From a bacterium (lineage in GTDB: Bacteria > Patescibacteriota > Minisyncoccia > Phycocordibacterales > Phycocordibacteraceae): 64,000 bases of DNA. The stretch lies in assembly GCA_021802705.1 (NCBI GenBank), contig JAJZRL010000004.1, positions 13,862-77,861 of the forward strand. The letters are read 5' to 3'. The translations under genes and the position numbers were made by a program. Below are positions 23,989 to 56,882 of this stretch, piece by piece. Each line of letters opens with the position of its first letter. The stretch's first letter is position 1. Below the pieces are notes generated by a model. It was given only the letters and a program-made list of their open reading frames with translations, ran no database searches and was not told the origin of the DNA.

Positions 23989-24040
23989 AAGGATTTTGGT
24001 CGGGTTGCATTGTCGAGCTCGTTTCTTTATACTTGCAGAA

Positions 24041-30578: not shown

Positions 30579-31904
30579 CTATTTCGTAAGTGCAATCTGT
30601 TTGTCTTTCATCACGATCTTCCCGCGCATATATTCGAGCAGATCGCGCTTCTCCTCGACGGTGCCATTTTGTAGCAAGTACTTGGCGTAGCGGCGCACGT
30701 CCATTTCCTTCGCCTTGAGCCGCTCTCCCGGATTCCGGGTAGCCGCCTGGAGCTTGTTGTACCGGGCGACCTCTGCCTCGATAACCTTCCGCGCTCCAAT
30801 CTCGTCAAGCTCGACCTGGTCGATCATGGCCGCAAGCTGCTCGATGAGGTTGTCCTCGCGGATGTACGGATTCGCACACGGCACGCCCTTTGACTTCGTG
30901 CAGGTATAGTAGATGTAAGTGCGCTCGGTGCCGTCGCTCTTGATGATTTTCTTCTTCTCGACACCCGTGATGCCCGAGCCGCATTCGCCGCAGACCATGA
31001 TCTTCGTGAAGGTGAACGAGTGCTGCGTGTGCTTCGGCTTGTGATCCTCGAGGAGCTTGTCCTGCACGAGCTGATACAGGTCCCGGCTGATAAGCGCCGT
31101 GTGCCTTCCCGTATACCAGTTGCCGCTCCCTCGCGGGTATTCGTACACGCCGCAGTAGAAGGGATTTTTGAGCGTCAGGTACACCGAGCTCACGGACAGG
31201 TGCTTGTTATTCTTCGTGCGGAAATCGAGGTCGTTCTTGAGCCAGGCGTAAATCCTCCGGCCGCTCCACCGCTCGTATCCGGCCTTCTCGAACATCTGCT
31301 TCACGATGGGGGAGCGTATCGGGTCTACCACCATCTCGCACTTGTGGTCGCGCCGCCTGTCGTTCGCGTATCCGACCGGCGCGACGCCCGGTAGAAGGCC
31401 CATCTCCGCGCGGGTCTTGAGGCCGCGCTTCACGTTGATGCGCTTGTTGTCGTTTTCGAGCTTCGCCTGGCTCCCGAGAATCATGAGTAAGAACTTCTCA
31501 TTCGGATTGTTCGAGAATTTCTGATTGTACGTGCGTATCTCGCGCAGAAGCCCCGCGTCCATGAGGTCGATGACCTTGCCGAGGTCGCCAGCATTTCGGG
31601 CAATGCGGTCTGGTGCCCAGGTGAGGAGTCCATCGAATTTTCCGACCCGCACTTCGTCGATAATCTGGTTGAAGACCGGCCGCTGACCCGTCTCTTTGGC
31701 CGAGTGCGATTCGCGCTTTACCTCGATCACGTCGATGCCGTCCCGTTCGGCGAGCGCCGTCATCTCCTTGATCTGGCTATCTATCGAGAGCGCCTGGACC
31801 TCGTCCTGCTCCGTCGATTTGCGGGCGTACAGGCAGTACCGGATCGGGCGCACCTCTTCGACGACCGGGACGCTCCCCATTTCCCTTGCTAAGGTTGTCT
31901 CCAT
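30579..31904 (-). CDS. large serine recombinase (resolvase catalytic domain + recombinase domain + zinc ribbon)
   Basis: YARKSTEQD catalytic Ser region, CGECGSGITG zinc ribbon, coiled-coil tail; paralog at 50998..52353. Confidence 0.9.
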   Translation of the reverse strand: METTLAREMGSVPVVEEVRPIRYCLYARKSTEQDEVQALSIDSQIKEMTALAERDGIDVIEVKRESHSAKETGQRPVFNQIIDEVRVGKFDGLLTWAPDRIARNAGDLGKVIDLMDAGLLREIRTYNQKFSNNPNEKFLLMILGSQAKLENDNKRINVKRGLKTRAEMGLLPGVAPVGYANDRRRDHKCEMVVDPIRSPIVKQMFEKAGYERWSGRRIYAWLKNDLDFRTKNNKHLSVSSVYLTLKNPFYCGVYEYPRGSGNWYTGRHTALISRDLYQLVQDKLLEDHKPKHTQHSFTFTKIMVCGECGSGITGVEKKKIIKSDGTERTYIYYTCTKSKGVPCANPYIREDNLIEQLAAMIDQVELDEIGARKVIEAEVARYNKLQAATRNPGERLKAKEMDVRRYAKYLLQNGTVEEKRDLLEYMRGKIVMKDKQIALTK

Positions 31905-35739: not shown

Positions 35740-36990
35740 CTTGTCCCCAGCGAGTAAGGTCTCGATCGGGCGCCCGCCCGGCCCGTAACCCTGAAATCAC
35801 ATGGAAAAGACCCTTACCTACGCCGAATACCAGGCTCGGCTTAAAAACGTGCGCACCCCAGAGGACGCCGCCGCCCTCGCCGAAGAGCTGACCGCCTCCG
35901 CGCTCGCCGCTATCCCGCAGGCCGAGCCGGAGGAGGAAGCCCCGGCCCCGAAGGCGAAATACAAGCGCCGTCTTGGCATCCCCGCGATCGACAAAGACGA
36001 CCTTGCCTTCGCTCCGTGGTACGACGTGGTCGCCAACGACAACGAAGCGATGGTCATCACCCTATACGCCAAGGGCCTCACAACCCGCGACATCTCGCGG
36101 TACATGAAGGCGCATCACGGCGTCGACATCTCCCAGCCTGGCGTCTCATCGATCACGGACAAAGTGTTCCCGCTCGTTAAAGAATGGCAGGCGCGCCCGC
36201 TCTCCGCGATGTACCCGATCGTGTATCTGGACGGCATTCACTTCAAGGTCCGCGATGCGGGGAAGATAGCGTCGAAAGTCGCGTACATCGCGCTCGGCAT
36301 CAATCCGTACGGCATTAAAGAAGTGCTCGGCATCTGGGTGACCGATACGGAGGGCGCGAAGTATTGGATGCACGTCCTGAATGACCTCAAAAATCGAGGC
36401 GTCGACGACATCCTCATCGCGTGCGTTGACGGCCTCAAGGGATTCCCTGAGGCGATCAAGGCGGTGTACCCGAACACGGACGTACAGGTGTGCATCGCGC
36501 ACCAGATCCGGAACACCATGAAGTTCCTGCCGTTCCACGATCGCGAGGCCTTCTGCAAAGACCTCAAACTCGTGTACACGGCGGCGAATGCCGAAGCGGG
36601 CCGCGAAGCGCTGGATGAGGTGAAGGAGAAATGGCCTCAATACCGGCCGTACCTCCGCAGCTGGGAAGAAAAGTGGTCGGATCTCGCCACCTTCTTCGAG
36701 TATCCGGCTCCGGTTCGCCGCATGATCTACACGACGAACATGATCGAGAACCTGAACCGGCAGTTCCGGAAGGTGACGAAGACGACCAACGTCTTCCCGC
36801 ACGACGACTCGCTCGTGAAGCTCCTCTGGCTCGCGCAGTCGGACTTCTCGAAGGCTCGTTCCATGGCGCTTCGCAATTGGAGCGAGATCATGGCACAGCT
36901 TTCCGTCCTCTTTGAGGACCGCGTGCGGTTCTAGCAGATCTCTATTAACCAACGGCCGGGCAGGGCTCCCGCCGAATGCCGCTGAGAGCG
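35740..36990 (+). mobile_element. IS256-family insertion sequence (boundaries approximate)
   Basis: mutator-type transposase ORF; short imperfect inverted repeats GCCCGCCCGGCC near 35770 and 36960; ends not precisely resolved. Confidence 0.5.
35801..36934 (+). CDS. IS256-family (mutator-type) transposase
   Basis: DDE region YLDGIHFKV ... VCIAHQIRN, ~380 aa. Confidence 0.85.
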   Translation: MEKTLTYAEYQARLKNVRTPEDAAALAEELTASALAAIPQAEPEEEAPAPKAKYKRRLGIPAIDKDDLAFAPWYDVVANDNEAMVITLYAKGLTTRDISRYMKAHHGVDISQPGVSSITDKVFPLVKEWQARPLSAMYPIVYLDGIHFKVRDAGKIASKVAYIALGINPYGIKEVLGIWVTDTEGAKYWMHVLNDLKNRGVDDILIACVDGLKGFPEAIKAVYPNTDVQVCIAHQIRNTMKFLPFHDREAFCKDLKLVYTAANAEAGREALDEVKEKWPQYRPYLRSWEEKWSDLATFFEYPAPVRRMIYTTNMIENLNRQFRKVTKTTNVFPHDDSLVKLLWLAQSDFSKARSMALRNWSEIMAQLSVLFEDRVRF

Positions 36991-37272: not shown

Positions 37273-38772
37273 ATGGCAACCCTGATCTCCAAAACGACCT
37301 TCTTGGAGTTTCTTATGTGCCCAAAGAATATTTGGCTAAAAATCCATAAGCCCGAACTGATAGACCTTTTTGGCCTATCGCCATTTGAACTTCAGTTGGC
37401 CGAGCAAGGCAATGAGGTTGAGGAGTGGGCCCGCAAACTCTTCCCACAAGGAGTGCTTGTCACGCAAACCGGGGACGGTGCCGTCGAAGAAACGCAGCAT
37501 CTCATGGCTGCCGAGACGCCTGCGATTTTTCAGGCAACTTTCGTGGTCGACGGCTTTATTGCGAAAAACGATGTGCTGGCGTACGACAAGAAAAATCAGA
37601 GATGGGACCTCTACGAAATTAAGGGCACGAATTCGATAAAAGAGGACGGCGGCGATCGCGACCATATCGACGACCTCGCATTCCAGGCATCCGTCCTGAG
37701 GCGCGCGGGAATCTCGACGGGTCGTTATTTCCTGATCCACCTCAATAAGGATTACATTCGTGCGGGGGACCTCGAAATAGACCAGCTCTTCCTCGTCGAG
37801 GATATGACGGAGAAAATCACGGCCCGCCTCCCTCAGGTGGAGGAGCAGATGGAGGCCGCTCGCGTGCACCTAACGAAAGAAACCGAGCCGATGGTCGGGT
37901 GCGACTGTATATACGCAGGTCGGAGTTCGCACTGCTCCACATTCAAATACTCGAATCCTCAGGTACCCGAATATTCAATCCATGATCTTGCCCGAATCGG
38001 CAACAGCAAGAAGAAGCTCAAGATCATGGTCGAACGCGGCGCCGTCGATCTCAGGGATATCCCCGAGGATGTGGAGTTGAGCGACATTCAAAAGAACCAG
38101 GTGCGTGTACATCTCACGCAGACACCCATTGTCGATGTCGATGAAATCAAGAAGGAACTCGAGGCGCTGACCTTCCCGTTGTACTTCCTCGACTACGAAA
38201 CCTTCGCTCCTGCAATTCCGATGTTCGGTGGCTACGGGCCGTATGACCGGATTCCATTCCAGTTCTCCCTTCATATTCTCCGCGATCCAAACTCGGAGCC
38301 GGAGCATGTCGAATATCTTCATCTAGACCGTTCAGATCCCTCTCAACCGGTCGCCGAGTTGCTCGCAAAACACATACAGCCGGGTGGCACTGTTATCGCC
38401 TGGAACAAGGGGTTCGAGCAGGGAGTCAATAAGGAGCTTGCGGTTCGTAAATCCGAATACGCTCAACCGCTCGAGCAGATCAACGCGCAGATGTATGACC
38501 TTCGCGACATTTTCCATAAGCAACATTATGTACATCCGGAATTTAAGGGGAAAACCTCTATCAAGAAAGTCCTCCCTCCGCTCGTGCCAGGGGTGCGACA
38601 CGCCGATCTAAACATCAAAGAAGGCGGTCAGGCATCTGACGCCTGGTCACAGATGATCGCGCCTGCCACTTCGCCGGGAGAGCGCGAGAAAATCGCTCAG
38701 GATCTTTTGACGTACTGTGGTCTCGATACGTATGCGATGTTCCAGATCTGGAAACATCTCGCCGAGCTTTAA
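37273..38772 (+). CDS. DUF2779-like protein (RecB/PD-(D/E)xK-like nuclease fold, Cys cluster)
   Basis: N-terminus ISKTTFLEFLMCPKNIWLKIHKPEL typical of DUF2779; internal CDCIYAG..SHC cluster. Confidence 0.55.
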   Translation: MATLISKTTFLEFLMCPKNIWLKIHKPELIDLFGLSPFELQLAEQGNEVEEWARKLFPQGVLVTQTGDGAVEETQHLMAAETPAIFQATFVVDGFIAKNDVLAYDKKNQRWDLYEIKGTNSIKEDGGDRDHIDDLAFQASVLRRAGISTGRYFLIHLNKDYIRAGDLEIDQLFLVEDMTEKITARLPQVEEQMEAARVHLTKETEPMVGCDCIYAGRSSHCSTFKYSNPQVPEYSIHDLARIGNSKKKLKIMVERGAVDLRDIPEDVELSDIQKNQVRVHLTQTPIVDVDEIKKELEALTFPLYFLDYETFAPAIPMFGGYGPYDRIPFQFSLHILRDPNSEPEHVEYLHLDRSDPSQPVAELLAKHIQPGGTVIAWNKGFEQGVNKELAVRKSEYAQPLEQINAQMYDLRDIFHKQHYVHPEFKGKTSIKKVLPPLVPGVRHADLNIKEGGQASDAWSQMIAPATSPGEREKIAQDLLTYCGLDTYAMFQIWKHLAEL

Positions 38773-38810
38773 TCGGCATGCGAAGGAGCTCTTTTGCTGA
38801 TTTGTAGGTA

Positions 38811-39035
38811 AGCCCCTTCGCAAGGCCGCCATTCTAAGCTACCCTTAAGAGACTAGCCCCGTGCTAGTACGACCTAAACCAATGGCCCTGGCCGCTGGCA
38901 TGGTCGAAAATCGCATCGAACCTAGAAAACCCGTCATCAGGGCGTTCGATGCGTTATACGGGGAAACTCGTATAGGCCCGCAAGGGCTCCTGGTGGCGGG
39001 TTTTGTGGCACCCGTCCGACAGGATTTATTCGTTA
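38811..39035 (+). ncRNA. candidate structured RNA (5' leader motif, copy A)
   Basis: homologous to 54297-54560 with compensatory stem substitutions and GCAA<->TTCG tetraloop swap. Confidence 0.55.
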
Positions 39036-39045
39036 GCAACCCTGT

Positions 39046-39612
39046 ATGGACTCGCAAGAAAAACCGACGAAGAAGTTTTACAAGCAATGGTGGTTCTGGG
39101 TGATCGTCGTGCTCGTCCTCGCCGTCATAGGCGAGAGCGGCGGCTCGAAGACTTCCGATCAGACGACCGCGCAGACGGAAGCCGTGCCGACGACGCAGTC
39201 CGCGCCCGCCGAGACGGCGAGTGCCCCGGCGCAAACCGCCGCAGCTCCCGCGAAGCAGACGGCTCCCGCCAAGACGACGACCGCGTCCGTTCCGGCCCCA
39301 GCATCCGCGCCAGCCTCAGCCCCGCACGTTCCCGTCGTCCTGCTCCAAGTGAGCGGCAACGGGCAGAAATCCACGCAGACTTTCACCGCGCCCTCGAACT
39401 GGACGATGGACTACACGTACGACTGTTCTTCGTTCGGGATGCGCGGCAACTTCCAGGTGTACGTGTATAACGCGAACGGCACCATGGCGCTCCTCTCGGG
39501 CCCGAACGAGCTCGGCACCTCCGGCTCCGACACCGAGTACTACCACCAAGGCGGCCAGTTCTACCTCGAGGTCAACTCCGAGTGCAGCTGGACGATCACG
39601 GCGAAGGGGTAG
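39046..39612 (+). CDS. membrane-anchored low-complexity protein (paralog of 54571..55042 in N-terminus)
   Basis: KKFYKQWWFWVIVVLVL anchor, Ala/Pro/Thr-rich linker, C-terminal beta-rich domain. Confidence 0.6.
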   Translation: MDSQEKPTKKFYKQWWFWVIVVLVLAVIGESGGSKTSDQTTAQTEAVPTTQSAPAETASAPAQTAAAPAKQTAPAKTTTASVPAPASAPASAPHVPVVLLQVSGNGQKSTQTFTAPSNWTMDYTYDCSSFGMRGNFQVYVYNANGTMALLSGPNELGTSGSDTEYYHQGGQFYLEVNSECSWTITAKG

Positions 39613-39723: not shown

Positions 39724-41196
39724 TCATATCACGAAGATGCGCGGCACCCACGGCGGGTCCTCGGTCATCGAGAGTGCGAGCGTCGTAAACGCGTCGGCGA
39801 GGTCGTCGTGCTTCTCGACGCCGAAGTGGACGATCTGCCGGATGAGCTCTTCCGCTCCCGTGCGCGGGAACAGAATTGTGCCGTTCCGGATCATGTTTGC
39901 CGTGAGAATGAGTCGCGTGCGCTTGTCCTGGCTGCCCGGCCTGGTGGTGCGCACGTCGTGCAGCCCTTCTTTCTCGAGTTGTTGCGGAAGCGCTTTTTGG
40001 TACGCAACGTCCTCGACCACGAAGGCAGGATATCGGCCGTCGCTCTCGTAGTAGCTGTCCTCGAGCGTCTTGCAGAGGTCGACGGTCTCCGGGAACGAGA
40101 GACGGCGATTGATGATTTTCGGGAGAATATACAGTCGATAGCCCTCGCGCGTTTCGTAGAGCAGGCCTGGCACCATCGCCGTGTAGTCGGCAGTATCACG
40201 TTTCGAGATTGCGAGGTCGACGGCGATACGCACCACCATATTCGATCTGTACTTTCCTTCGAAAAGCGGCAGAGGCGGCGGGATTTCGTCGTAGTAGTGG
40301 ATCCACGCTGGGTCGATGGCCTGGTCCTCGGCGGGAACGATGTTAAGGAGGTATTCGCGTTGCCACGCATATTCGTTCGCGGCTTTTGCTTTCTCATCCT
40401 CGACATCCGCCATGGTCGGATACTTACCGAGCCAGGCGATGACGCCGTCTTTCACGAGAGGATATGCGCGGAACTCTCCCTTTATCCGACCCTTGTCCAT
40501 GTCGTCCTTGAGCCGCATAAGGGTCGAGTCTTCGTGGAGCAGGTTTCCGACGATTACCATGCGCGTATCGCGGTCTCCCGCCGGGACAACTTCGCCCGTG
40601 AGCCATTGGTACGTCTTATCGCGCCCTTCGCGCGTTTTCGTCGAAGCGATGTCCTCGAGGTCATCGCCGACGATGAGATCGGGACGGTGCTGGTTGTGGC
40701 GGAGTCCGCGAATGGCCTGCTCGGTCGAGACGGCGGTGATCCGCGCGTTTAAGCGCGAGAACACGAGCGAGGACGAACCCCATTCATTTTGCTCCTCTTG
40801 GAAGGGGCCGAGGTCATTCTTCAAGAGGTGATTGCCCTCGAGTTCGCGACGCAAGTTCATCATGTGCTGTTTCGCTTGCGCTTGCGTTTGGCACAGGAGG
40901 AGCACGAACTTCTTTTCGTGTTCGCCGAGGATCGCCCATATCGGGTACGACGTGGTGAATATCGTCGATTTTGCCGACCCGCGAAACGCGACAATGAGAA
41001 GGTTGCGCACCTCCCGATCTTCCGAAAGCCGGAACATTTCATGCTGAAACTTCGCCGTCGGATATCTCACGTAGTGCGCGAAGTAGAAGTGGAAGAACAT
41101 GAAGTGGCTCTTCCGCGTTATCGCCGCGCGGATTTTCCGGTCGCGGAACATCTTGTCCGCGAGGTCAGGCGGCAGGCCGGTCGGTTGAGGGTCCAT
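39724..41196 (-). CDS. phage terminase large subunit-like protein
   Basis: Walker A-like VAFRGSAKST, C-terminal RNaseH-like nuclease acidic residues (VAVDLAIS..D, VVEDVAY, DDLADAF). Confidence 0.7.
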   Translation of the reverse strand: MDPQPTGLPPDLADKMFRDRKIRAAITRKSHFMFFHFYFAHYVRYPTAKFQHEMFRLSEDREVRNLLIVAFRGSAKSTIFTTSYPIWAILGEHEKKFVLLLCQTQAQAKQHMMNLRRELEGNHLLKNDLGPFQEEQNEWGSSSLVFSRLNARITAVSTEQAIRGLRHNQHRPDLIVGDDLEDIASTKTREGRDKTYQWLTGEVVPAGDRDTRMVIVGNLLHEDSTLMRLKDDMDKGRIKGEFRAYPLVKDGVIAWLGKYPTMADVEDEKAKAANEYAWQREYLLNIVPAEDQAIDPAWIHYYDEIPPPLPLFEGKYRSNMVVRIAVDLAISKRDTADYTAMVPGLLYETREGYRLYILPKIINRRLSFPETVDLCKTLEDSYYESDGRYPAFVVEDVAYQKALPQQLEKEGLHDVRTTRPGSQDKRTRLILTANMIRNGTILFPRTGAEELIRQIVHFGVEKHDDLADAFTTLALSMTEDPPWVPRIFVI

Positions 41197-41614
41197 GGGG
41201 TTCGGGGTTAGCAGTCGGCGTCTCGGTGTCGGCAGCTTCGAGCGGCAAGGAGGCCAAGCGCAGCGCCTCTTTCACCACCGCTTCCTGTTCAGGAGACAGC
41301 TCGTCTTGCGGCGGTGCGGCTGCGACGACCTCGAGACGGTCGCGGAACTTCGGGTTGCGCTTCCTAAGCCAAAACGAGATGGCGTGCCAGTTCTTTTCTT
41401 TCATGAGCGTGAGGAGTTGCGATTCGCCCATATCGTTCACGATCGCTTCGCCCTCGGCGAGCGCCTCGTCCATCGCTTTCGCGAACTCCGGATCCTCCTT
41501 GCGCCAGCGGTACACGCTGTTACGGGCGATCCCGACCTTCTCGCATGCGACCTGTACGATCGGGATTTTGCGCAGCTGCTCGAGGAAGATGTCTTGGGTG
41601 CGGTCCTTTTTCAT
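41165..41614 (-). CDS. HTH DNA-binding protein, putative terminase small subunit
   Basis: VACEKVGIARNSVYRWRKED helix-turn-helix; upstream of terL; paralog 55043..55495. Confidence 0.5.
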   Translation of the reverse strand: MKKDRTQDIFLEQLRKIPIVQVACEKVGIARNSVYRWRKEDPEFAKAMDEALAEGEAIVNDMGESQLLTLMKEKNWHAISFWLRKRNPKFRDRLEVVAAAPPQDELSPEQEAVVKEALRLASLPLEAADTETPTANPEPHGPSTDRPAA

Positions 41615-48720: not shown

Positions 48721-48724
48721 TCCT

Positions 48725-51001
48725 ATGCAATTCAAGCGCTATCAAACTGCTGCCCTAGAGACGCTCGACACCTTCTTGGGGAGCATCAAAAAGACGCCCT
48801 TGCGTCACGCTTTTCTCGACATAACGGACGAGAAGTACAACCAGGACTGGTTCGGTGAAGTCCCGTTCGTCTGTGTCCGCATACCAACCGGCGGAGGTAA
48901 GACTCTCGTGGCGTGTAAGTCAGTGGAACGGATCATGAGTACGATCCTCCAGTACAAGCTGGATACAGGAGTCGTCATGTGGTTCGTGCCGTCGGACTCG
49001 ATCAAGACGCAGACGCTCAAGAAGTTTAAGGACTCGCGGGACTGGCACAACGAAGTGCTGAACGAGTCTTTTGATGGGAAGGTAAAGGTTTTCTCGAATG
49101 AGGAAGCACTTACTATCACTCCTGAAGATGTGCGCAATAATCTCTGCATCATTGTGGCGAGTCTCGAGGCCTTCCGTAAGGAGGCATCCATCCAGAAGAA
49201 ATACAAAGTCTACAAGGAAAACGGCGCTCTGATGGATCACTTCTTGAATCTCAAAGACACCAAAGATCTTGAGAAGGACTCGGAAGGTGAAGTGATTAAT
49301 TCGCTCGCAAACGTCATCCGCAAGAACAACCCACTCATCGTTATCGATGAAGGCCACCACACACAGACCGAGCTTTCTGTGCAGTTCCTCTCCGACCTCA
49401 AACCGTCTTTCATTATCGAGTTCACGGCTACGCCGCGTGATGGCAGTAACGTGCTCGTGCGCATCAGTGCTTCCGAACTCAAGAATGAGCAGATGGTGAA
49501 GATTCCTATCGTGCTTGAGAGCCGTTCGCAGTGGGAGCAGGTAGTGGCAGACGGCTTGGTCAAACGAGAGGAGCTCGAGAAGCGGGCCAAGAAACTCGCC
49601 AAGGAATATATACGCCCGATTGCACTCCTTCAGGCACAGCCGAAGAGCAAGGTCCGTACCACGGTTACCGTCGAAGACCTCAAACAGATGCTTCTTGCTC
49701 GCAAGATTCCGGAGAGCCAGATCAAGATAAAGACCTCTGATGTCGATGAACTTGAGGGAATAGATCTCTTTGATAAGAAGTGCGAGGTCCGCTATATCTT
49801 GACCGTCAACGCTCTCGCAGAGGGGTGGGACTGCTCATTTGCATATGTGCTTATCTCAGTTGCAAACCTTGGAGCAAAAGTAGCCGTTGAACAGATCATC
49901 GGCCGCGTTATTCGCATGCCGAATGCAAAGAGGAAAACTGACGATGCTCTCAACCGCAGCTATGTGTTTGCCTCGGCAGCCAACTTCAATGAAGCCGCTT
50001 CTAGAATTATCGGCGGCCTCGAGGACAACGGCTACAGCCGGTCCGACTTCGTGGGAGTTGCTGAAGAGAAGGAGTATTCTGATCCTCTTGAAGCGAAGAA
50101 GGCAATCAAGAAAGATTTGAAAGTCCCGATGATGGCTATCGGGAAGCAGAAGCTCTCATTTGAGGATTTGCTCGGAGAGGATTTTGAGCTTGCGAAGCAG
50201 AACCCCGACTGCGACTTCAAGATCCATTATGACCTCGATGGGCAGGCGACTATCGACATCTCAGAAGACGAAGAGTGGCTTCAGGGGAAACAGCTAGCGC
50301 TCTCGTTCCAGTACCTCGATGGGAATCATTCTGTAGATGAGTTGGTGACGTGGCTTGATAAGAAGCTCCGTTTCCCGATGCTGAGTCCGGAGGATAAAAT
50401 CGCCTTTCTCGAGAGGGCCGTGCAGTCGCAGATAAAGAAGAATAAGCGGACGCTTCCGGAGTTGTCCGTTAACCGGTATCTTCTTGCAGAACGCCTGAAC
50501 CTTCTTATCACTGAACGACTCGAAACCTATACGAAGAAAGCATATAAGGATCTTCTTGCAAAGAAGAAGTTGGTCGTCGCGCCTTTTGATTCATACCCCG
50601 CGACTATTGCCCTCAAATCTCCGGTACCGAAGGTCTTCAATAAGAACCTCTATGAGCGTATCGACTCAATTAACGGTGAAGAGCGCGGGTTTGTGGAACG
50701 CATCGATCTTGGTGCTTTGGACAATATTGAGTTCTGGGTTCGCAACCGAGAAAAGGTAGACCCGTTTTATATCCAGGGATGGAAGAAAGGAAAGTTCTAT
50801 CCAGACTTTGTCGCCGTGACGAAGAAGGGAAATATCGTTGCGCTTGAATGGAAAGGGGAGGACCGGATCAGCAACGAGGATACTTCTTACAAAGTCGAGA
50901 TTGCAAAAGAATGGGAGAAACTGGGCAAAGGTAAGACGCATTTCTTCCTTGTGCATAACGGGAAAGTCGACGAAGTCCTTGCCGGAATCAAGGCACTCTA
51001 G
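48725..51001 (+). CDS. res: type III restriction enzyme Res subunit (helicase-nuclease)
   Basis: SF2 helicase motif I IPTGGGKT, DEGHH motif II, immediately downstream of mod. Confidence 0.85.
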   Translation: MQFKRYQTAALETLDTFLGSIKKTPLRHAFLDITDEKYNQDWFGEVPFVCVRIPTGGGKTLVACKSVERIMSTILQYKLDTGVVMWFVPSDSIKTQTLKKFKDSRDWHNEVLNESFDGKVKVFSNEEALTITPEDVRNNLCIIVASLEAFRKEASIQKKYKVYKENGALMDHFLNLKDTKDLEKDSEGEVINSLANVIRKNNPLIVIDEGHHTQTELSVQFLSDLKPSFIIEFTATPRDGSNVLVRISASELKNEQMVKIPIVLESRSQWEQVVADGLVKREELEKRAKKLAKEYIRPIALLQAQPKSKVRTTVTVEDLKQMLLARKIPESQIKIKTSDVDELEGIDLFDKKCEVRYILTVNALAEGWDCSFAYVLISVANLGAKVAVEQIIGRVIRMPNAKRKTDDALNRSYVFASAANFNEAASRIIGGLEDNGYSRSDFVGVAEEKEYSDPLEAKKAIKKDLKVPMMAIGKQKLSFEDLLGEDFELAKQNPDCDFKIHYDLDGQATIDISEDEEWLQGKQLALSFQYLDGNHSVDELVTWLDKKLRFPMLSPEDKIAFLERAVQSQIKKNKRTLPELSVNRYLLAERLNLLITERLETYTKKAYKDLLAKKKLVVAPFDSYPATIALKSPVPKVFNKNLYERIDSINGEERGFVERIDLGALDNIEFWVRNREKVDPFYIQGWKKGKFYPDFVAVTKKGNIVALEWKGEDRISNEDTSYKVEIAKEWEKLGKGKTHFFLVHNGKVDEVLAGIKAL

Positions 51002-52353
51002 CCCACTGACTCGAGGGAAATTTTTCTATCTTTCATCACGATCTTGCCGCGCATGTATTCGAGCAGGTCGCGCTTTTCCTGCACGGTTCCGTTCTGGAGT
51101 AGGTACTTCGCATAGCGTCGCACATCCATTTCTTTTGCCTTGAGCCGCTCTCCTGGATGCTGTGTGGCCGCTTGTAACTTGTTGTATCGCGAAACCTCCG
51201 CCTCAATGACTCTCCGCGCCCCGATCTCATCCAGCTCGACTTGGTCCATTATCGCCGCCAGCTGTTCGATAAGATGATCCTCGCGGATATAAGGGTTCTC
51301 GCAGGGATTGCCCTTGGATTTCGTACAGGTGTAGTAGATGTAGGAACGCTCTGAGCCGTCAGATTTGATGATCTTCTTTTTCTCTACACCCGTGATGCCG
51401 GAGCCGCATTCGCCACAGATCATGATCTTGGTGAAGGTGAATGAGTGCCGTGTATGTTTCGGTTTGTGGTCTTCGGCGAGCTTCTCTTGCACGAGCTGGT
51501 ATAACTCGCGTGTGATAAGCGGTGTGTGTTTGCCGGTATACCAGTTGCCGCTACCACGTGGGTATTCGTACACGCCGCAGTAGAAGGGATTCTTCAGTGT
51601 CGTGTATACCAGACTTACCGGTAGATGTTTATTGCTCCTCGTCCTGAAATCGATTTCTTTTAGCCATGCGTATATCTTGCGTCCGCTCCATCGTTCGTAT
51701 GCCGCCTTTTCGAACATCTGCTTCACGATAGGGGAGCGGACGGAGTCGACGAGCATTTCACACTTGTGATCGCGTCGTTTGTCATTTAGGTATCCGAGCG
51801 GAGCGACTCCAGGCAAGAGTCCCATCTCGGCTCGGGTCTTCAGGCCGCGCTTCACGTTGATGCGCTTGTTGTCGTTCTCAAGCTTTGCTTGGCTCCCCAG
51901 AATCATGAGAAGGAATTTCTCATTCGGGTTATTCGAGAACTTTTGATTGTATGTCCGTATCTCGCGCAGAAGTCCTGCGTCCATGAGGTCTATAACTTTC
52001 CCGAGATCGCCCGCGTTACGCGCGATGCGATCTGGCGCCCAAGTGAGCAGGCCATCGAACTTACCGATCCGTATCTCGTCGATGATTTGGTTGTACACCG
52101 GCCGTTGGCCAGTCTCTTTTGCAGAGTGCGATTCGCGTTTAATCTCGACCACGTTTATGCCGTCGCGCCTGGCGAGCTCGGTCATTTCCTTGATCTGACT
52201 GTCGATCGATAGCGCTTGAACCTCATCTTGCTCGGTTGATTTGCGGGCGTATAGACAGTACCGGATCGGGTGTATCACCTCGACGACCGGCATGCTTCCC
52301 ATTTCTCTCGCTAAAGTGGCTTCCATTTCCTTGTATTTACTGGCTAATGGCAC
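50998..52353 (-). CDS. large serine recombinase (paralog of 30579..31904)
   Basis: YARKSTEQD, CGECGSGITG; ~85% identical to the first copy by eye. Confidence 0.9.
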   Translation of the reverse strand: MPLASKYKEMEATLAREMGSMPVVEVIHPIRYCLYARKSTEQDEVQALSIDSQIKEMTELARRDGINVVEIKRESHSAKETGQRPVYNQIIDEIRIGKFDGLLTWAPDRIARNAGDLGKVIDLMDAGLLREIRTYNQKFSNNPNEKFLLMILGSQAKLENDNKRINVKRGLKTRAEMGLLPGVAPLGYLNDKRRDHKCEMLVDSVRSPIVKQMFEKAAYERWSGRKIYAWLKEIDFRTRSNKHLPVSLVYTTLKNPFYCGVYEYPRGSGNWYTGKHTPLITRELYQLVQEKLAEDHKPKHTRHSFTFTKIMICGECGSGITGVEKKKIIKSDGSERSYIYYTCTKSKGNPCENPYIREDHLIEQLAAIMDQVELDEIGARRVIEAEVSRYNKLQAATQHPGERLKAKEMDVRRYAKYLLQNGTVQEKRDLLEYMRGKIVMKDRKISLESVG

Positions 52354-54296: not shown

Positions 54297-54560
54297 AAGC
54301 CCCTTCGCAAAGCCCTAATACTAAGTTAGGGTCGTGGGCAGGCTCAATTTGAGTTATTATGTTCTTGTAAACCGAATAAAGAGGCCTAAACCGGCTTGAG
54401 AATCCTTGATTCTCCCGGCATGGCCGCAAATCGCGACCAGCGTACTGAACCCGTCATCGGGAGCGCTGGTCGCGTTACAGGGGGAAACTCTTGTAGGGCC
54501 TTCGGGCCCACCCGGTGGCGGGTTCAGTGCGTCTCTCCATCGGGCATTACAAATCGCGAC
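54297..54560 (+). ncRNA. candidate structured RNA (5' leader motif, copy B)
   Basis: see copy A. Confidence 0.55.
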
Positions 54561-54570
54561 CAGCAAATAT

Positions 54571-55042
54571 GGATGTTCAATCTGCACCAAAGAAGTTTTA
54601 CAAGAAGTGGTGGTTCTGGCTCATTATAGTGCTCGTTCTTGGCGGCCTCGCGTCGACGCCTGATTCCCCGAGCACGACTGCAACAACGGCGACCGCCTCT
54701 GACACGCAAAGCGCTCCGACCCCGAAAGAAGCGCGAACGCTCGGACAAGACGCGTACCTGCGTCTTCCGAATAACAGCGATCCGAAACAGATCCTCTGCC
54801 TCGCGCCGACCAAGAATGTGTACGACGAGTACACCAAGGCGCTCATGGCTCAGGACTACCAAGGCATTCTTGATCTTTCCGCCCAAGGGCTCTTCTGCGT
54901 TCATAACGGCTCCGAAGTGAAAGTCATTGATACGAGCGTCCTGCTCACGAGAGTACGCGTGGTCAAAGGCGCATCGGATGCCGACAGCGACAATGTGGGG
55001 CAGGCCGGATGGTCCGCGAGCGAGTGGATAGTTGATCGGTAA
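54571..55042 (+). CDS. membrane-anchored protein (paralog of 39046..39612 N-terminus)
   Basis: internal ATG MDVQSAPKKFYKKWWFWLIIVLVL of track ORF 54515..55042. Confidence 0.55.
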
Positions 55043-55495
55043 TCACGGTGCCGCTTCGTTCCATGGGTCTGTCAGTGAGCCTAGTCTCCTGTCTCGCTTG
55101 ATGTGATTTTCTCGTGTCGTCTCTTCGTTTGCGTGTTGGTATTCACGTGGATCGACCACTCGAATCTGCACGGTCTGGACAGGCGGTGCTTCCTTGATAT
55201 ACGGAGCGGGCTTGCGCGGTCGGTAGTAGCGCTTTGAGTTCGCTTCGAGAATCAGTTTGATCGCACCGAAGTGTTCCTTGTCGGCCATCTTCACGAGTTT
55301 GCTCTCGGCATGGTCGACCAGCGTGTCCCGCCCGCGTTTCAGCGAACGATCGTACTTCTTTTTGAAGTCAGGGTCGTCCTCGAGCCAGCGATAGATGGTC
55401 GCTTTGCTGATACCGGCACGCTTGCACACCACCGATACGATCGGCAGGTTCTCGAGTTCATCGAGAAATTTCTGTTTATCATCAGGCGGCACCAT
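55043..55495 (-). CDS. HTH DNA-binding protein, putative terminase small subunit
   Basis: VCKRAGISKATIYRWLEDDPDF; paralog of 41165..41614. Confidence 0.5.
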   Translation of the reverse strand: MVPPDDKQKFLDELENLPIVSVVCKRAGISKATIYRWLEDDPDFKKKYDRSLKRGRDTLVDHAESKLVKMADKEHFGAIKLILEANSKRYYRPRKPAPYIKEAPPVQTVQIRVVDPREYQHANEETTRENHIKRDRRLGSLTDPWNEAAP

Positions 55496-56882
55496 GGATC
55501 TTAACGGCCTTCTTCCCAGTCTCCATTTCCCAACGCCGTTTTATGACTTCAGCGTACACGGGACTCTTCTCCATGAGATAGCAACGGCGATGCATCTTGA
55601 TGGATGCGATGAGAGTCGATCCGCTCCCGCCGAATGGCTCAACGATAAGGTCGTCACGCTTCGTGAGCACCTTCACATACGGGATGAGGATCTCGAGCGG
55701 CTTGGTGCCGAAAATGATGCCTTGTCCTGAGGACTGAAGGTCGGCCGCTTTGTACTCGATGAAGTCGGTCGGCTGGATCTTCTTTCCTTTTTCATATCCC
55801 TCCCAGTGTGGCTTACCCGAGATAGCGTAGAGCGCCGTTTCGTACTCGTTATCGAGGAGTTCGCCTTCGCTATCAAGGTTGAGATGCTCGGCATCATCCT
55901 GCGACGAGCCGACCACCGCGATGTCGTGCTTGCTGAACAGCTTGTACTTCCCGGCGTATCCCTGATTGCGGTTTGGCAGATGCCACACAATCATGTTCTT
56001 CACCTTCCAGTATTTCTCCATCTCGCCCCAGATGGTGCGGATGTTCTTCCAGTTCTCATACACGACGATGTGGAAGTCCGGTTTCGCAATTTTCGACACA
56101 TTGCCCATCCAGAGTTCAGTGAAGTTATCGGGCAGTGAATCGGTCTCGAGATAACGGCGGTCACGCTTCGCACCGAAGCCGGTCACGGCCTCGCCATTCT
56201 TTTTCTTCTTGCCGTGAAGATAGTCGAGGATGTATGGAGGATCGGTGAAGCACATATCAGCACGAGCATCGCCCATAAGGGTGAGCATGTCGGCCTCGAC
56301 GGTCGAGTCGCCACACATCATCCTCGACCCGTCGATTTCATAGATATCGCCCTTTTGCACTTTGATCTCGGTGATATCAAGCTTCTCGAGTTCCTTCTCG
56401 AGGTCGAATTTCTCAGGATTATCCTCGGCAGGGAATATGTCATCGAGGTCTTCGCTTGAGAAGCCGACCTCGGTGAGGAGGGAAGCATCGAATTCCTTGA
56501 GGAGCTCGAAGTCCCATTCACCGACCGCCTTGTTCAAGCGAAGACAGAGGTCGCGTTCTTTCTCGATATCGGGAATCGCGAGATACACAACGGGTACTTC
56601 TTCGTGGCCCATGTCCTTCAGCACTTCATACCGAAGGTTGCCGCCGATGATAATGCCTTCGCGCCCGGGCGCATTGTTCACGAGGATTGGATCGGCTACG
56701 CCATGGCGTTCGATGCTCTCGCGCACAGGAAGTTTCGTTTCGTCGTTAAGAACTCGTGGGTTGTACTCCGCGTGGCGGAGGGAAGTAATGGGCACATATA
56801 CGATATTGAGTTTGTTTTCCATAGATGTTGTTTTTAATTGGTAACGAAAACGCCCGAACAAGCGCTCGTGTCGATGACACAA
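55482..56882 (-). CDS. ParB-like nuclease domain fused to DNA methyltransferase
   Basis: N-terminal ParB box, C-terminal IVEPFGGSGSTL. Confidence 0.8.
   Translation of the reverse strand: MCHRHERLFGRFRYQLKTTSMENKLNIVYVPITSLRHAEYNPRVLNDETKLPVRESIERHGVADPILVNNAPGREGIIIGGNLRYEVLKDMGHEEVPVVYLAIPDIEKERDLCLRLNKAVGEWDFELLKEFDASLLTEVGFSSEDLDDIFPAEDNPEKFDLEKELEKLDITEIKVQKGDIYEIDGSRMMCGDSTVEADMLTLMGDARADMCFTDPPYILDYLHGKKKKNGEAVTGFGAKRDRRYLETDSLPDNFTELWMGNVSKIAKPDFHIVVYENWKNIRTIWGEMEKYWKVKNMIVWHLPNRNQGYAGKYKLFSKHDIAVVGSSQDDAEHLNLDSEGELLDNEYETALYAISGKPHWEGYEKGKKIQPTDFIEYKAADLQSSGQGIIFGTKPLEILIPYVKVLTKRDDLIVEPFGGSGSTLIASIKMHRRCYLMEKSPVYAEVIKRRWEMETGKKAVKIHGAA

What the first reader, a model, noticed from the sequence alone, without database searches (positions are those of the whole stretch)
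38811..39035. Candidate novel structured RNA at the head of both phage-like modules
Two intergenic segments, 38811-39035 and 54297-54560, are homologous and sit between an upstream stop codon and the ATG of paralogous membrane-anchored proteins (KKFYKQWWFW...). Where they differ, the changes are compensatory. (1) Arm pair CGCATCGAAC ... GTTCGATGCG in copy A is replaced by GCGACCAGCG ... CGCTGGTCGC in copy B: both arms are completely different, yet each pair is perfectly complementary. (2) TATACG-GGGAAACT-CGTATA versus TACAGG-GGGAAACT-CTTGTA keeps the loop and introduces a G-U wobble. (3) GCCC-GCAA-GGGC becomes GGCC-TTCG-GGCC, a GNRA to UUCG tetraloop exchange on a re-paired stem. Single-stranded stretches (CCCGTCATC, GGTGGCGGGTT, AAGCCCCTTCGCAA) are conserved. 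Tetraloop swapping and G-U pairs argue for RNA-level rather than DNA-operator selection. I could not match it to any RNA family I know (not T-box, RNase P, tmRNA, group II domain V or the common riboswitches).
Basis: seen in the sequence. Interest (0 to 1): 0.8.

Follow-up and report, generated by a model that had tools for sequence, protein, structure and literature searches.

The report
LOOT leader RNA in phage-like elements
The two segments are real, strongly structured RNAs, but they belong to an already catalogued orphan family (LOOT, Rfam RF03000); here they sit as leaders in front of small membrane-protein genes inside two phage-like elements, and comparison with about 100 relatives adds a pseudoknot and a genomic setting that are not part of the Rfam model or found in the searched literature.

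Summary
Both segments hit Rfam RF03000 (LOOT RNA) well above threshold (79.7 and 68.7 bits; cut-off 46.4). LOOT has no known function.

I collected 102 full-length LOOTs, mostly from Patescibacteria (CPR) genomes, and found four things.
1. The two "conserved single strands" CCCGUCAUC and GGUGGCGGG pair with each other. This pseudoknot lies outside the Rfam model (95% paired, 8 of 9 pairs covary).
2. LOOT has its own promoter-like upstream region. An ATG ORF follows within 70 nt in 80 of 102 loci. These ORFs are unrelated to each other, and 64% have an N-terminal membrane segment.
3. LOOT often sits between a divergent large serine recombinase gene and a convergent terminase/ParB-methylase block, as in both window modules.
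4. The 3' strands of the pseudoknot and of stem P2 can pair instead with downstream copies of their partners. The P2 copy (14% of loci, including window copy B) always ends 2-9 nt before the ATG.

Best reading: a cis-acting leader switch for accessory ("moron") genes of temperate elements. The trigger is unknown. Stem P2 is hypervariable yet strictly Watson-Crick, which I cannot explain.

The parts
38810..38823 (+). Copy A: 14-mer AAGCCCCTTCGCAA shared exactly with copy B. It contains a possible -35 box, TTCGCA (38817-38822).
   Evidence: exact matches occur only at 38810 and 54297. L097 and L152 carry the same CCCCTTCGCA motif upstream of their LOOT. Reading it as a promoter is my inference; the consensus scan did not call it.
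38840..38845 (+). Copy A: possible -10 box TACCCT, 17 nt after TTCGCA.
   Evidence: TTCGCA-17 nt-TAnnnT is present in window A, window B, L097 and L152 (sequences). Inferred and weak.
38852..38868 (+). Copy A: optional leader hairpin (ACUAGC-CCCGU-GCUAGU) between the presumed transcript start and P1.
   Evidence: The equivalent hairpin, often with a GNRA loop, sits at the same place in L097, L152, L132, L146, L013, L051 and L095.
38871..38988 (+). Copy A: LOOT RNA core as defined by Rfam RF03000 (P1, P1a, P2, P3, P4).
   Evidence: 79.7 bits (cut-off 46.4), E = 2.2e-13, model positions 1-121 of 121. One search confirms.
38869..39010 (+). Copy A: extended LOOT, including the 3' pseudoknot strand and the U-rich tail.
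   Evidence: My covariance model R1 scores 127.5 bits. Fold z-score -5.3.
38912..38953 (+). Copy A: stem P2 (38912-38921 pairs with 38944-38953) and its ~22-nt loop.
   Evidence: Family-wide, P2 is 99% paired and 9 of 10 pairs covary. It is hypervariable and almost free of G-U pairs.
38930..38938 (+). Copy A: pseudoknot 5' strand CCCGUCAUC, inside the P2 loop.
   Evidence: Pairs with 38992-39000. Family-wide: 95.3% paired, 8 of 9 pairs with double changes, 0 of 500 shuffles reach this.
38992..39007 (+). Copy A: pseudoknot 3' strand GGUGGCGGG (38992-39000) plus U-rich tail UUUUGUG (39001-39007). The tail can extend the helix onto the A-rich part of the P2 loop.
   Evidence: The loop:tail duplex is -31.6 kcal/mol. 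This stretch lies outside the Rfam model, which ends at 38988.
39010..39016 (+). Copy A: 'mimic' ACCCGUC, which can pair with the pseudoknot 3' strand in place of the P2 loop.
   Evidence: Family-wide, the pseudoknot 3' strand pairs with the first 30 nt downstream at -12.3 kcal/mol, against -10.0 when loci are permuted (p = 1.5e-5) and -6 to -8 for other regions.
39046..39612 (+). Gene led by copy A: 188-aa protein with an N-terminal membrane anchor (KKFYKQWWFW...).
   Evidence: No Pfam hit reaches the cut-off; the only weak match is DUF6465, 21 bits against a cut-off of 26. Shares only its first ~55 aa with the copy B gene.
54297..54310 (+). Copy B: the same 14-mer AAGCCCCTTCGCAA (TTCGCA at 54304-54309). 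TAGGGT follows 17 nt later (54327-54332).
   Evidence: The promoter reading is inferred.
54369..54379 (+). Copy B: AAACCGAAUAA, a degenerate copy of the family's 5' motif ACAAYUGAAUA. A TATTAT box lies 8 nt upstream (54355-54360).
   Evidence: The motif occurs in 40 of 102 loci, 11-35 nt before P1, with a -10-like box 6-9 nt upstream of it. Background is 0.013 per 60 nt.
54383..54509 (+). Copy B: LOOT RNA core (Rfam RF03000), with a 20-nt longer P1a hairpin.
   Evidence: 68.7 bits, E = 8.3e-11, model positions 1-121 of 121. One search confirms.
54381..54532 (+). Copy B: extended LOOT, including the pseudoknot and tail.
   Evidence: Model R1 scores 105.5 bits. Fold z-score -7.5.
54432..54474 (+). 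Copy B: stem P2 (54432-54442 pairs with 54464-54474, 11 bp) and its loop.
54442..54461 (+). Copy B: whole P2 loop GUACUGAA-CCCGUCAUC-GGG, which pairs with the tail. The core is 54450-54458.
   Evidence: 20 of 20 positions pair with 54511-54530, -38.3 kcal/mol. B's unusual tail UUCAGUGC is matched by its unusual loop GUACUGAA; L063 and L139 show similar matched changes.
54511..54530 (+). Copy B: pseudoknot 3' strand (core GGUGGCGGG at 54514-54522) and tail UUCAGUGC.
54537..54544 (+). Copy B: 'mimic' CCAUCGGG, complementary to CCCGGUGG (54511-54518).
54550..54564 (+). Copy B: exact 15-nt direct copy (CAAAUCGCGACCAGC) of the J1/2 linker plus the P2 5' strand (54427-54441). It ends 4 nt before the ATG.
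   Evidence: Duplex with the P2 3' strand is -22 kcal/mol. Such copies occur in 14 of 101 loci, against 0.6-2.7 expected, and are always 2-9 nt from an ATG.
54569..55042 (+). Gene led by copy B: 157-aa protein with an N-terminal membrane anchor.
50998..52353 (-). Large serine recombinase, upstream of and divergent from LOOT-B.
   Evidence: Pfam Resolvase + Recombinase + Zn_ribbon_recom. PHROG integrase.
30579..31904 (-). Second large serine recombinase, upstream of and divergent from LOOT-A. Defence-type genes and an IS256-family transposase lie between it and LOOT-A.
   Evidence: Gene calls and Pfam families of the same contig, L162. ORF listed.
39724..41614 (-). Terminase large (39724-41196) and small (41165-41614) subunit genes, convergent with the LOOT-A gene.
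   Evidence: PHROGs phrog_38 at 8.6e-74 and phrog_4044 at 2e-12.
55043..56882 (-). Terminase small subunit-like gene (55043-55495) and ParB-N/DNA methylase gene (55482-56882), convergent with the LOOT-B gene.

Best explanation
**Shown.**
- Both segments are LOOT RNAs (Rfam RF03000).
- The fold consists of:
  - P1 with a conserved internal loop;
  - a variable P1a hairpin;
  - a 10-11 bp stem P2;
  - P3 capped by an invariant GAAA loop;
  - a P4 hairpin;
  - a pseudoknot, outside the Rfam model, between the P2 loop and the 3' tail.
- The RNA is followed at about 20-45 nt by the start codon of a same-strand gene that varies between loci and most often encodes a small membrane-anchored protein.
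- In the window and in many Patescibacteria loci, the unit lies between a divergent large serine recombinase gene and a convergent terminase/ParB-methylase block.

**Inferred context.**
- LOOT starts at or near the 5' end of its own transcript.
- Its position in the element is the one where temperate phages keep accessory ('moron', superinfection-exclusion) genes.

**Inferred mechanism.**
- LOOT is a cis-acting leader that gates expression of the gene behind it by switching between two folds.
- In the compact fold, P2 and the pseudoknot are formed and the start region is free.
- In the other fold, the pseudoknot 3' strand pairs with a downstream 'mimic'. In a subset of loci (including window copy B), the P2 3' strand also pairs with a perfect downstream copy of the P2 5' strand that abuts the ATG and occludes it.
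- What sets the balance is unknown. It could be a protein, a small ligand or co-transcriptional folding.
For: **Identity.**
- Rfam hits at 79.7 and 68.7 bits, full length.
- Helices 87-99% paired with covariation over 102 homologues.

**Pseudoknot.**
- Chosen independently by RNAalifold.
- 95.3% paired against 79.2% in shuffles and 33-47% when partners are slid. These columns were not fitted to the pairing.

**Compact tertiary fold.**
- The P3 loop is GAAA in 100 of 102 sequences, whereas the P4 loop varies: GCAA 48, GAAA 24, UUCG 16.
- The P1 internal loop CCUAAAC/GCAUGG resembles the 11-nt GAAA-tetraloop receptor CCUAAG/UAUGG. This is my inference.

**Leader position.**
- 80 of 102 loci have an ATG ORF of at least 40 aa starting 0-63 nt after the RNA on the same strand.
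- A conserved ACAAYUGAAUA motif with a -10-like box just upstream occurs in 40 of 102 loci.

**Cargo.**
- 64% of the downstream ORFs have an N-terminal membrane-like segment, against 15% of neighbouring ORFs.
- Their Pfam families are heterogeneous: superinfection immunity, DUF4352, DUF2726, DNA methylases, zinc-ribbon membrane proteins.

**Element context.**
- 39 LOOT loci hold a large serine recombinase, mostly upstream and divergent; 12 are within 150 nt.
- With at least 5 kb of upstream sequence held, 15 of 33 loci have one.
- Terminase and ParB-methylase genes lie downstream and convergent in 12 or more loci.
- The window shows the same order twice.
- Five IMG/VR viral contigs carry a true LOOT: L005, L011, L013, L031, L033 (a sixth, L021, brought in by a LOOT-like variant, also holds one).

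**Alternative pairings.**
- Pseudoknot 3' strand with the first 30 nt downstream: -12.3 kcal/mol, against -10.0 permuted (p = 1.5e-5) and about -7 elsewhere.
- P2 3' strand with a downstream copy: at most -12 kcal/mol in 15 of 101 loci against 2.7 expected. All 14 clear copies end 2-9 nt before an ATG.
- In L110 and L136 the P2 3' strand matches the downstream copy better than its own partner.
- The order of the downstream copies (mimic first, then P2 copy) is the one a nested alternative fold needs. It is the reverse of the order a simple duplication would give.
Against: - A general test found no consistent change in predicted start-codon accessibility when the pseudoknot 3' strand was blocked or free (mean difference 0.02, p = 0.26).
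- The P2 copy is present in only about 14% of loci and is degenerate in window copy A. The ATG-occluding pairing therefore cannot be the family-wide mechanism.
- The genes behind LOOT share no function, unlike typical riboswitch regulons.
- Rfam files LOOT as 'Gene; sRNA'.
- The pseudoknot is followed by a U-rich tract that could end a discrete small RNA.
- There are no expression data.
- The P1 receptor motifs were part of my retrieval pattern, so their invariance in my set is partly by construction. Only the Rfam consensus supports it independently.
Confidence: 0.45

Rival explanations
1. LOOT is a discrete small RNA made from the leader, acting in trans as well as in cis. The model would be the RNA immunity factors of temperate elements: P1/P7 c4 (a1 b1 - c4 - a2 b2) and satellite P4 CI RNA (seqA - seqB - seqC). 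The hypervariable stem P2 would be the specificity determinant, and the downstream copy near the ATG would be the target.
For: - Rfam types LOOT as an sRNA.
- It has a promoter-like upstream region and a GC-rich helix followed by a U-rich tract.
- It has the same three-part logic as c4 and CI: a partner upstream, its complement in the RNA, and a copy of the partner downstream in the start region.
- P2 is hypervariable, with 91 distinct sequences among 102, as expected for a specificity element.
- It sits in integrative, phage- or satellite-like elements.
- The description of c4 and CI rests on my own knowledge of the literature, not on papers read here.
Against: - Only about 14% of loci have the downstream target.
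- No other target for either window P2 sequence exists in the 64-kb window beyond chance: 15 matches against 13 expected, and 18 against 12 with only the known copy exact.
- Both candidate 'antisense' strands are locked in intramolecular helices.
- There is no similarity to the c4 families.
- The downstream genes are not antirepressor or replication genes.
- The consensus scan calls no terminator at the 3' end.
Confidence: 0.25
2. LOOT is the aptamer of a riboswitch for a small molecule, for example a nucleotide second messenger or an ion. The downstream mimic, the P2 copy and occasional terminators would be its variable expression platforms.
For: - The fold is compact and highly conserved, with a pseudoknot and a probable tetraloop-receptor contact.
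- It sits at a fixed place in 5' leaders.
- It has mutually exclusive pairings of the kind expression platforms use.
- The sequences after the aptamer differ from locus to locus. Some longer spacers (L031, L147) contain what by eye looks like a hairpin followed by a U-run (not run through the terminator scan).
Against: - The regulated genes have no common function.
- No candidate ligand follows from the context.
- There is no consistent predicted effect on the start region.
- P2, part of the supposed aptamer, is hypervariable and free of G-U pairs, which ligand binding would not explain.
Confidence: 0.15
3. LOOT is an RNA processing element: either a self-cleaving ribozyme or a double-strand-specific nuclease (RNase III-type) site in P2. 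Cleavage would mature or stabilise the mRNA of the downstream gene.
For: - It has a complex conserved fold in mobile-element contexts next to functionally unrelated genes, as seen for several self-cleaving ribozyme classes (my knowledge).
- P2 is a 10-11 bp helix of any sequence but strictly Watson-Crick: 0.7% G-U against 14-26% in the other helices. A protein that reads helix shape rather than sequence would impose this.
Against: - It matches no known ribozyme family.
- No conserved bulge or obvious cleavage-site motif was identified.
- 10-11 bp is short for RNase III.
- This reading is speculative.
Confidence: 0.07
4. The conserved feature acts at the DNA level. It would be an attachment or recombination site for the neighbouring serine recombinase, or an operator, and the apparent RNA structure would be secondary.
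For: - It lies close to a large serine recombinase gene.
- P2 plus its loop spans about 50 bp, the size of a serine-integrase att site.
- P2 is a perfect inverted repeat without G-U pairs.
- Homology between loci often stops at the LOOT 3' end.
Against: - The other helices are full of G-U pairs (16% in P3, 26% in the pseudoknot). Together with the GNRA/UUCG loop exchanges and an invariant GAAA loop, this only makes sense as RNA.
- LOOT is intact both next to the recombinase and inside elements with a conserved backbone on both sides. It is therefore neither split by integration nor at the element end.
Confidence: 0.04

Closest known systems
LOOT RNA motif (Rfam RF03000; Weinberg et al. 2017 collection, imported in Rfam 14)
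   Same: Both window copies align end to end with the model above the curated threshold. All modelled helices are present: P1 with the CCUAAAC/GCAUGG loop, P1a, P2, P3 with a GAAA loop, and P4.
   Different: - The Rfam model stops at P4. It omits the 3' pseudoknot strand, the U-rich tail and the 5' leader motif.
- It draws a local hairpin in the P2 loop. In my set that hairpin is only 73% paired with little covariation, while the same bases form the pseudoknot at 95%.
- Rfam 14 describes the family as metagenome-based (PMC7779021).
- I found no paper in the searched library that links LOOT to Patescibacteria or to a function.
Leader-encoded immunity RNAs of temperate elements: P1/P7 c4 antisense RNA (Rfam RF01695) and satellite P4 CI RNA
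   Same: - Encoded in the leader of the transcript they act on, in temperate or satellite elements.
- A sequence in the RNA is complementary both to an upstream partner and to a downstream copy of that partner at the start of the next gene.
- The matching sequences differ between related elements.
   Different: - There is no sequence or structure similarity.
- LOOT is larger and pseudoknotted.
- The downstream copy exists in only about 14% of loci.
- The downstream genes are membrane or defence-type cargo, not antirepressor or replication genes.
- Processing and trans action are untested.
- This comparison rests on my recollection of the c4 and CI literature.
Pseudoknot- or tetraloop-receptor-containing riboswitches with start-site sequestration (for example c-di-GMP-I, preQ1-II, SAM-II)
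   Same: - A compact aptamer-like fold in a 5' leader.
- A pseudoknot whose 3' strand has an alternative partner.
- Variable downstream platforms.
- For c-di-GMP-I, a very mixed set of controlled genes and occurrence in phages.
   Different: - No ligand is known or suggested.
- No family similarity was found.
- One helix of the core is hypervariable and free of G-U pairs.
- No consistent predicted effect on ribosome access.

Membership tests
LOOT RNA (Rfam RF03000) | Covariance-model score at or above the curated gathering score (46.4 bits), over the full model | tested here: met
   79.7 bits (38871-38988) and 68.7 bits (54383-54509), both covering model positions 1-121 of 121.
LOOT RNA (Rfam RF03000) | P1 enclosing the conserved internal loop CCUAAAC / GCAUGG, with a P1a hairpin | tested here: met
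   Present in both copies. Copy B has a 20-nt longer P1a.
LOOT RNA (Rfam RF03000) | Long stem P2, then a P3 hairpin with a GAAA loop and a P4 hairpin | tested here: met
   The P3 loop is GAAA in both copies and in 100 of 102 homologues.
LOOT RNA (Rfam RF03000) | Local hairpin inside the P2 loop, as drawn in the Rfam consensus | tested here: inconclusive
   Only 3 bp are possible in the window copies. It is 73% paired in my set with little covariation. The same bases form the pseudoknot.
Riboswitch (generic) | Conserved aptamer in a 5' leader with mutually exclusive downstream pairings | tested here: met
   Leader position in 80 of 102 loci. Alternative pairings of the pseudoknot and P2 3' strands.
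Riboswitch (generic) | Controlled genes share a pathway or ligand-related function | tested here: not met
   The downstream genes are heterogeneous and most have no Pfam family.
Riboswitch (generic) | Direct, selective ligand binding that changes the fold | not testable with these tools
   Needs in-line probing or ITC.
c4 / P4 CI-type leader-encoded immunity RNA | The RNA sequence is complementary to repeats upstream and downstream on the same transcript, with the downstream repeat at the start of the next gene | tested here: inconclusive
   Met in window copy B (54427-54441 repeated at 54550-54564) and in 14 of 101 loci. Degenerate in copy A and absent in most loci.
c4 / P4 CI-type leader-encoded immunity RNA | Similarity to the known c4 models | tested here: not met
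   No Rfam hit other than LOOT, even at E up to 1.
c4 / P4 CI-type leader-encoded immunity RNA | Processed to a stable small RNA that represses in trans | not testable with these tools
   Needs RNA-seq or Northern blots and genetics.
Intrinsic terminator | Short-loop GC-rich hairpin immediately followed by a U-run | tested here: not met
   The scan finds none at 38990-39010 or 54510-54535. The GC-rich helix before the U-rich tract is the pseudoknot, with about 50 nt (the P2 3' strand, P3 and P4) between its two strands.

The most novel reading that the evidence does not exclude
LOOT may be a programmable, element-specific RNA control module of Patescibacteria temperate phages or satellites. 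The conserved pseudoknotted body would sense a signal or partner. The hypervariable, strictly Watson-Crick stem P2 would act as an 'address' matched to the start region of the accessory gene it governs, or of a rival element's gene. That would make it an RNA-based immunity or exclusion switch, structurally unrelated to P1 c4 or P4 CI, in a phylum with very few known regulators.
Probability: 0.15. Interest if true: 0.8.

Novelty: new member of a known kind. Interest (0 to 1): 0.5.

Why it matters
LOOT has been an orphan. It has a covariation-supported fold, but Rfam describes it as metagenome-based and I found no published function.

This work places it in three ways.
- **Host:** Patescibacteria.
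- **Setting:** integrative, phage-like elements, between a serine recombinase gene and terminase genes.
- **Role in the transcript:** leader of a slot for variable membrane and defence genes.

It also extends the structure with a pseudoknot and competing downstream pairings.

Together these turn an anonymous motif into something testable. They give defined constructs: pseudoknot, P2 and downstream-copy mutants. They also point to defined systems: cultivated Saccharibacteria, if any carry LOOT, or heterologous reporters.

If LOOT does control prophage accessory genes, it would be one of very few regulatory elements known in this large, poorly understood bacterial group.

Tried and rejected
1. 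**Novel family.** Rejected by the Rfam hits.
2. **tRNA or tmRNA.** ARAGORN finds nothing at either site.
3. **Protein-coding region.** An 80-aa GTG ORF overlaps copy A. The stems covary, the hairpin lengths differ by non-triplet indels, and the family alignment is structural.
4. **Relay from the pseudoknot 3' strand through the mimic to the start codon.** I found no consistent change in predicted accessibility of positions -15 to +10.
5. **Trans targets of the P2 sequences in the window.** Matches are at chance level, apart from the known copy at 54553-54564.
6. **LOOT at the end of a minimal recombinase-plus-RNA element, with the downstream copy as the insertion target.** Rejected, because terminase and ParB-methylase genes are conserved beyond the variable gene in 12 or more loci.
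7. **The two LOOTs as attL/attR repeats of one prophage.** They are only about 68-76% identical, with fully different P2 stems. Each heads its own parallel module.
8. **Sigma-70 promoter and terminator consensus scans.** They call no promoter or terminator within LOOT or immediately flanking it; the nearest terminator-like hits (38780-38797, after the DUF2779 gene, and 54329-54345) lie upstream of each RNA and are within chance expectation.
9. **Cultured-phage database.** No match.
10. **Weinberg 2017 supplement.** Not held, so the original description of LOOT could not be read.
11. **Pairing of the 5' motif ACAAY with the UUGUG tail.** No supporting covariation by eye.
12. **Search for an 'empty site'.** Other assemblies of the same organism show the same arrangement.
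Full report
**1.

The two segments align at 76% identity.
- P2: 38912-38921 with 38944-38953 in copy A, and 54433-54442 with 54464-54473 in copy B. The sequences are completely different, and both are perfectly complementary.
- P3: GGGAAACU centre in both copies, with a G-U pair in B.
- P4: GCAA loop in A, UUCG loop in B.

Both copies fold far better than shuffled sequence (z = -5.3 and -7.5). There are only two copies in the window.

**2. It is a known family**

An Rfam scan places both copies in RF03000, the LOOT RNA.
- Scores are 79.7 and 68.7 bits against a gathering score of 46.4. Both hits are full length.
- Permissive scans of both regions find nothing else of note: the only other hit, bxd_5 at 14.6 bits (cut-off 50) and E = 0.71, is noise.
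- ARAGORN finds no tRNA or tmRNA there.

What the literature says about LOOT:
- It comes from the Weinberg/Breaker collection (Weinberg et al. 2017, PMC5737381). Rfam 14 calls it a metagenome-based RNA (PMC7779021).
- Its helices have been noted for strong covariation (PMC7657543, PMC11701678).
- I found no paper in the held library that assigns it a function or links it to Patescibacteria.
- The 2017 supplement is not held.

So the claim of a new family fails, but the RNA remains an orphan.

**3. Homologues**

- A pattern built from the conserved P1 motifs pulled 34 viral and 119 genome loci.
- A covariance model built from 24 sequences then found 102 full-length LOOTs (alignment A4).
- The positive genome loci are overwhelmingly named as Patescibacteria/CPR lineages: Saccharibacteria, Parcubacteria/Paceibacterota, Microgenomates-group phyla, Doudna-, Berkel-, Kuenen- and Uhrbacteria, among others.
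- A dozen are labelled 'uncultured Gammaproteobacteria'. One of these is a 0.89-Mb chromosome.
- The cultured non-CPR genomes hit by the pattern are all negative with the model.
- Five of the viral contigs hit by the pattern (L005, L011, L013, L031, L033) carry a true LOOT at the pattern match. A sixth, L021, was hit by the pattern at a LOOT-like variant and carries a true LOOT about 3 kb away.

**4. Structure**

On A4 the nested helices are well supported.

| Helix | Cells paired |
|---|---|
| P1 | 87% |
| P1a | 92% |
| P2 | 99% |
| P3 | 96.5% |

*Pseudoknot.*
CCCGUCAUC in the P2 loop pairs with GGUGGCGGG after P4.
- RNAalifold picked this helix on a plain MAFFT alignment.
- On A4, whose loop and tail columns were not fitted to any pairing, it is 95.3% paired with double changes at 8 of 9 pairs (for example GC 51 / AU 42).
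- No shuffle in 500 reaches this, and slid partners pair only 33-47%.
- The Rfam model ends before the 3' strand.
- The local hairpin that Rfam draws in the P2 loop is only 73% paired here.

*Extension of the pseudoknot.*
- Almost the whole P2 loop is complementary to the tail, including the U-rich tract. The duplex is -31.6 kcal/mol in A. In B, 20 of 20 positions pair, at -38.3 kcal/mol.
- B's unusual tail UUCAGUGC is matched by its unusual loop GUACUGAA.
- Whether the full 20-bp helix can coexist with P2 is sterically doubtful. This is my inference.

*Tertiary contact.*
- The P3 loop is GAAA in 100 of 102 sequences, while the P4 loop varies.
- The P1 loop CCUAAAC/GCAUGG resembles the 11-nt GAAA-tetraloop receptor. 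A tertiary contact is therefore likely (inference).
- The P1 motifs were part of my retrieval pattern, so their invariance in my set is not independent evidence.

**5. An odd helix**

P2 is hypervariable, with 91 distinct 5' strands among 102 and a mean pairwise identity of 0.31. Yet it is almost purely Watson-Crick.

| Helix | G-U share of paired cells |
|---|---|
| P2 | 0.7% |
| P1a | 14% |
| P3 | 16% |
| Pseudoknot | 26% |

The difference is significant at p of at most 1e-24. I have no tested explanation for it.

**6. Position in the transcript**

*Upstream.* 40 of 102 loci have the motif ACAAYUGAAUA 11-35 nt before P1, against a background of 0.013 per 60 nt. A TATAAT-like box lies 6-9 nt before the motif. 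LOOT therefore appears to start its own transcript.
- Copy B has a degenerate version of the motif (54369-54379).
- Copy A has the optional hairpin seen in a subgroup (38852-38868).
- The shared 14-mer AAGCCCCTTCGCAA (38810 and 54297, the only two exact matches) fits a TTCGCA-17 nt-TAnnnT arrangement that L097 and L152 also show. The consensus scan does not call it.

*Downstream.*
- 80 of 102 loci have an ATG ORF of at least 40 aa starting 0-63 nt after the model end on the same strand. The spacing is mostly 20-40 nt.
- Most of the remaining loci are truncated or have a start a little further on.
- Shine-Dalgarno motifs are rare there.

**7. What it precedes**

- The downstream ORFs are unrelated to one another.
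- 64% have a membrane-like segment in the first 80 residues, against 15% of other ORFs in the same loci.
- The few Pfam hits are superinfection immunity, DUF4352, DUF2726, DNA methylases, zinc-ribbon membrane proteins, bPH_2 and DUF559.
- The two window proteins share only their first ~55 residues.
- Between loci, long upstream homology stops at the LOOT 3' end. The gene behind LOOT is therefore a variable slot.

**8. Element context**

The window holds two parallel modules.
- **Module A:** large serine recombinase (30579-31904, minus strand); defence-type genes and an IS256-family transposase; LOOT-A and its membrane-protein gene. Convergent with that gene come the terminase large and small subunit genes, a methylase and a ParB-methylase. 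After these follow a LexA-like S24 repressor, a ThsB-TIR protein and a type III restriction-modification pair.
- **Module B:** large serine recombinase (50998-52353, minus strand); PIN_12 and a 240-aa protein; LOOT-B and its membrane-protein gene. Convergent with that gene come a terminase small subunit gene and a ParB-methylase, followed by an S24 repressor.

Across the collected loci:
- 39 hold a homologue of the recombinase. It is mostly upstream and divergent, and in 12 cases lies within 150 nt.
- With at least 5 kb of upstream sequence held, 15 of 33 loci have one.
- Terminase and ParB-methylase genes lie downstream and convergent in 12 or more loci.

LOOT is therefore internal to a recurrent backbone: recombinase, then LOOT with its variable gene, then the packaging genes. 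This is the kind of place where temperate phages keep accessory or exclusion genes (inference from general phage biology).

**9. Alternative pairings**

- The pseudoknot 3' strand is also complementary to the first 30 nt downstream (the 'mimic'). The duplex is -12.3 kcal/mol, against -10.0 when loci are permuted (p = 1.5e-5) and -6 to -8 for other regions.
- The P2 3' strand has a perfect downstream partner in a discrete subset of loci. This partner is a direct copy of the J1/2 linker plus the P2 5' strand.
  - 15 of 101 loci reach -12 kcal/mol or better, against 2.7 expected.
  - Every clear copy ends 2-9 nt before an ATG.
  - Window copy B has one: 54550-54564, identical to 54427-54441. Copy A has only a degenerate remnant.
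- The order (mimic, then P2 copy) is what a nested alternative fold needs.
- For copy B, three folds have comparable predicted energies. These are the LOOT fold with pseudoknot, a nested long loop:tail helix, and the alternative fold.
- However, blocking or freeing the pseudoknot 3' strand does not consistently change predicted start-site accessibility across loci (p = 0.26).

**10. Reading**

- I commit to a cis-acting leader switch, with a trigger I cannot identify, at about 0.45.
- The main rival (0.25) is a leader-derived small RNA that works like the P1 c4 or P4 CI immunity RNAs. It shares their three-part complementarity logic but not their sequence, fold or target genes.
- A ligand-sensing riboswitch (0.15), a processing element (0.07) and a DNA-level site (0.04) follow.
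- The DNA-level reading is weakened by the abundance of G-U pairs outside P2. It is also weakened because LOOT is intact within a backbone conserved on both sides.

**11. Verdict**

- The finding is real and well observed, but it is two new members of a known orphan family.
- My analysis adds four points: the host range, the element context, the leader position, and the pseudoknot with its competing pairings.
- The peculiar helix P2 remains an open question.

Noticed in passing
window 30579-61600: Two tandem, parallel integrative modules, each with a large serine recombinase, LOOT plus a membrane-protein gene, terminase small subunit (large subunit only in the first), ParB-methylase and an S24/LexA-like repressor. 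No capsid or tail genes were seen. They may be satellite-like or degraded prophages. They carry defence-type cargo: ThsB-TIR, a type III restriction-modification pair, PIN_12, DUF6119, RE_MamI with a methylase, and a Cap15-like protein.
   Followed up: partly
window 35801-36934: An IS256/Mutator-family transposase (Pfam E = 6e-85) sits between the first recombinase and LOOT-A, next to a DUF2779 nuclease-like gene (37273-38772).
   Followed up: no
L021 459-629, L034 1987-2157, L036, L122 1247-1317: A LOOT-like variant keeps P1 and P1a (CCUAAACC...GGCAUGG) and the AAAAC linker but continues with a different body. It scores only ~23 bits with my model. It lies a few kb from a true LOOT on the same contig in L021 and L122.
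   Followed up: no
L041, L048, L088, L089, L100, L105, L111, L115, L136, L138, L143: LOOT-positive genomes labelled 'uncultured Gammaproteobacteria' (TPA assemblies). One is a complete 0.89-Mb chromosome (OZ246416.1), a size typical of Patescibacteria. The labels may be wrong.
   Followed up: no
L041 1-144, L048 1-57, L088 1-49, L153 1-125: Several LOOT copies sit exactly at contig ends. This would be expected if LOOT is repeated within a genome and breaks assemblies.
   Followed up: no
window 39046-39210 and 54569-54735; also L067, L087, L095: The LOOT-led proteins of the window and of three other loci share an N-terminal anchor motif (KKFYKKWWFW plus a hydrophobic helix) but have unrelated C-terminal parts. 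The conserved unit seems to run from LOOT into the first ~55 codons.
   Followed up: partly
window 50998-51001: The stop codons of the ResIII helicase gene (48680-51001, plus strand) and of the second serine recombinase gene (50998-52353, minus strand) overlap by 4 nt. This leaves no intergenic room for an attachment site between the two modules.
   Followed up: no
window 7865-7952 (-) and 24040-24111 (+): tRNA-Ser(GCU) and tRNA-Met(CAU) genes. They are the only other Rfam/ARAGORN hits in the window.
   Followed up: no
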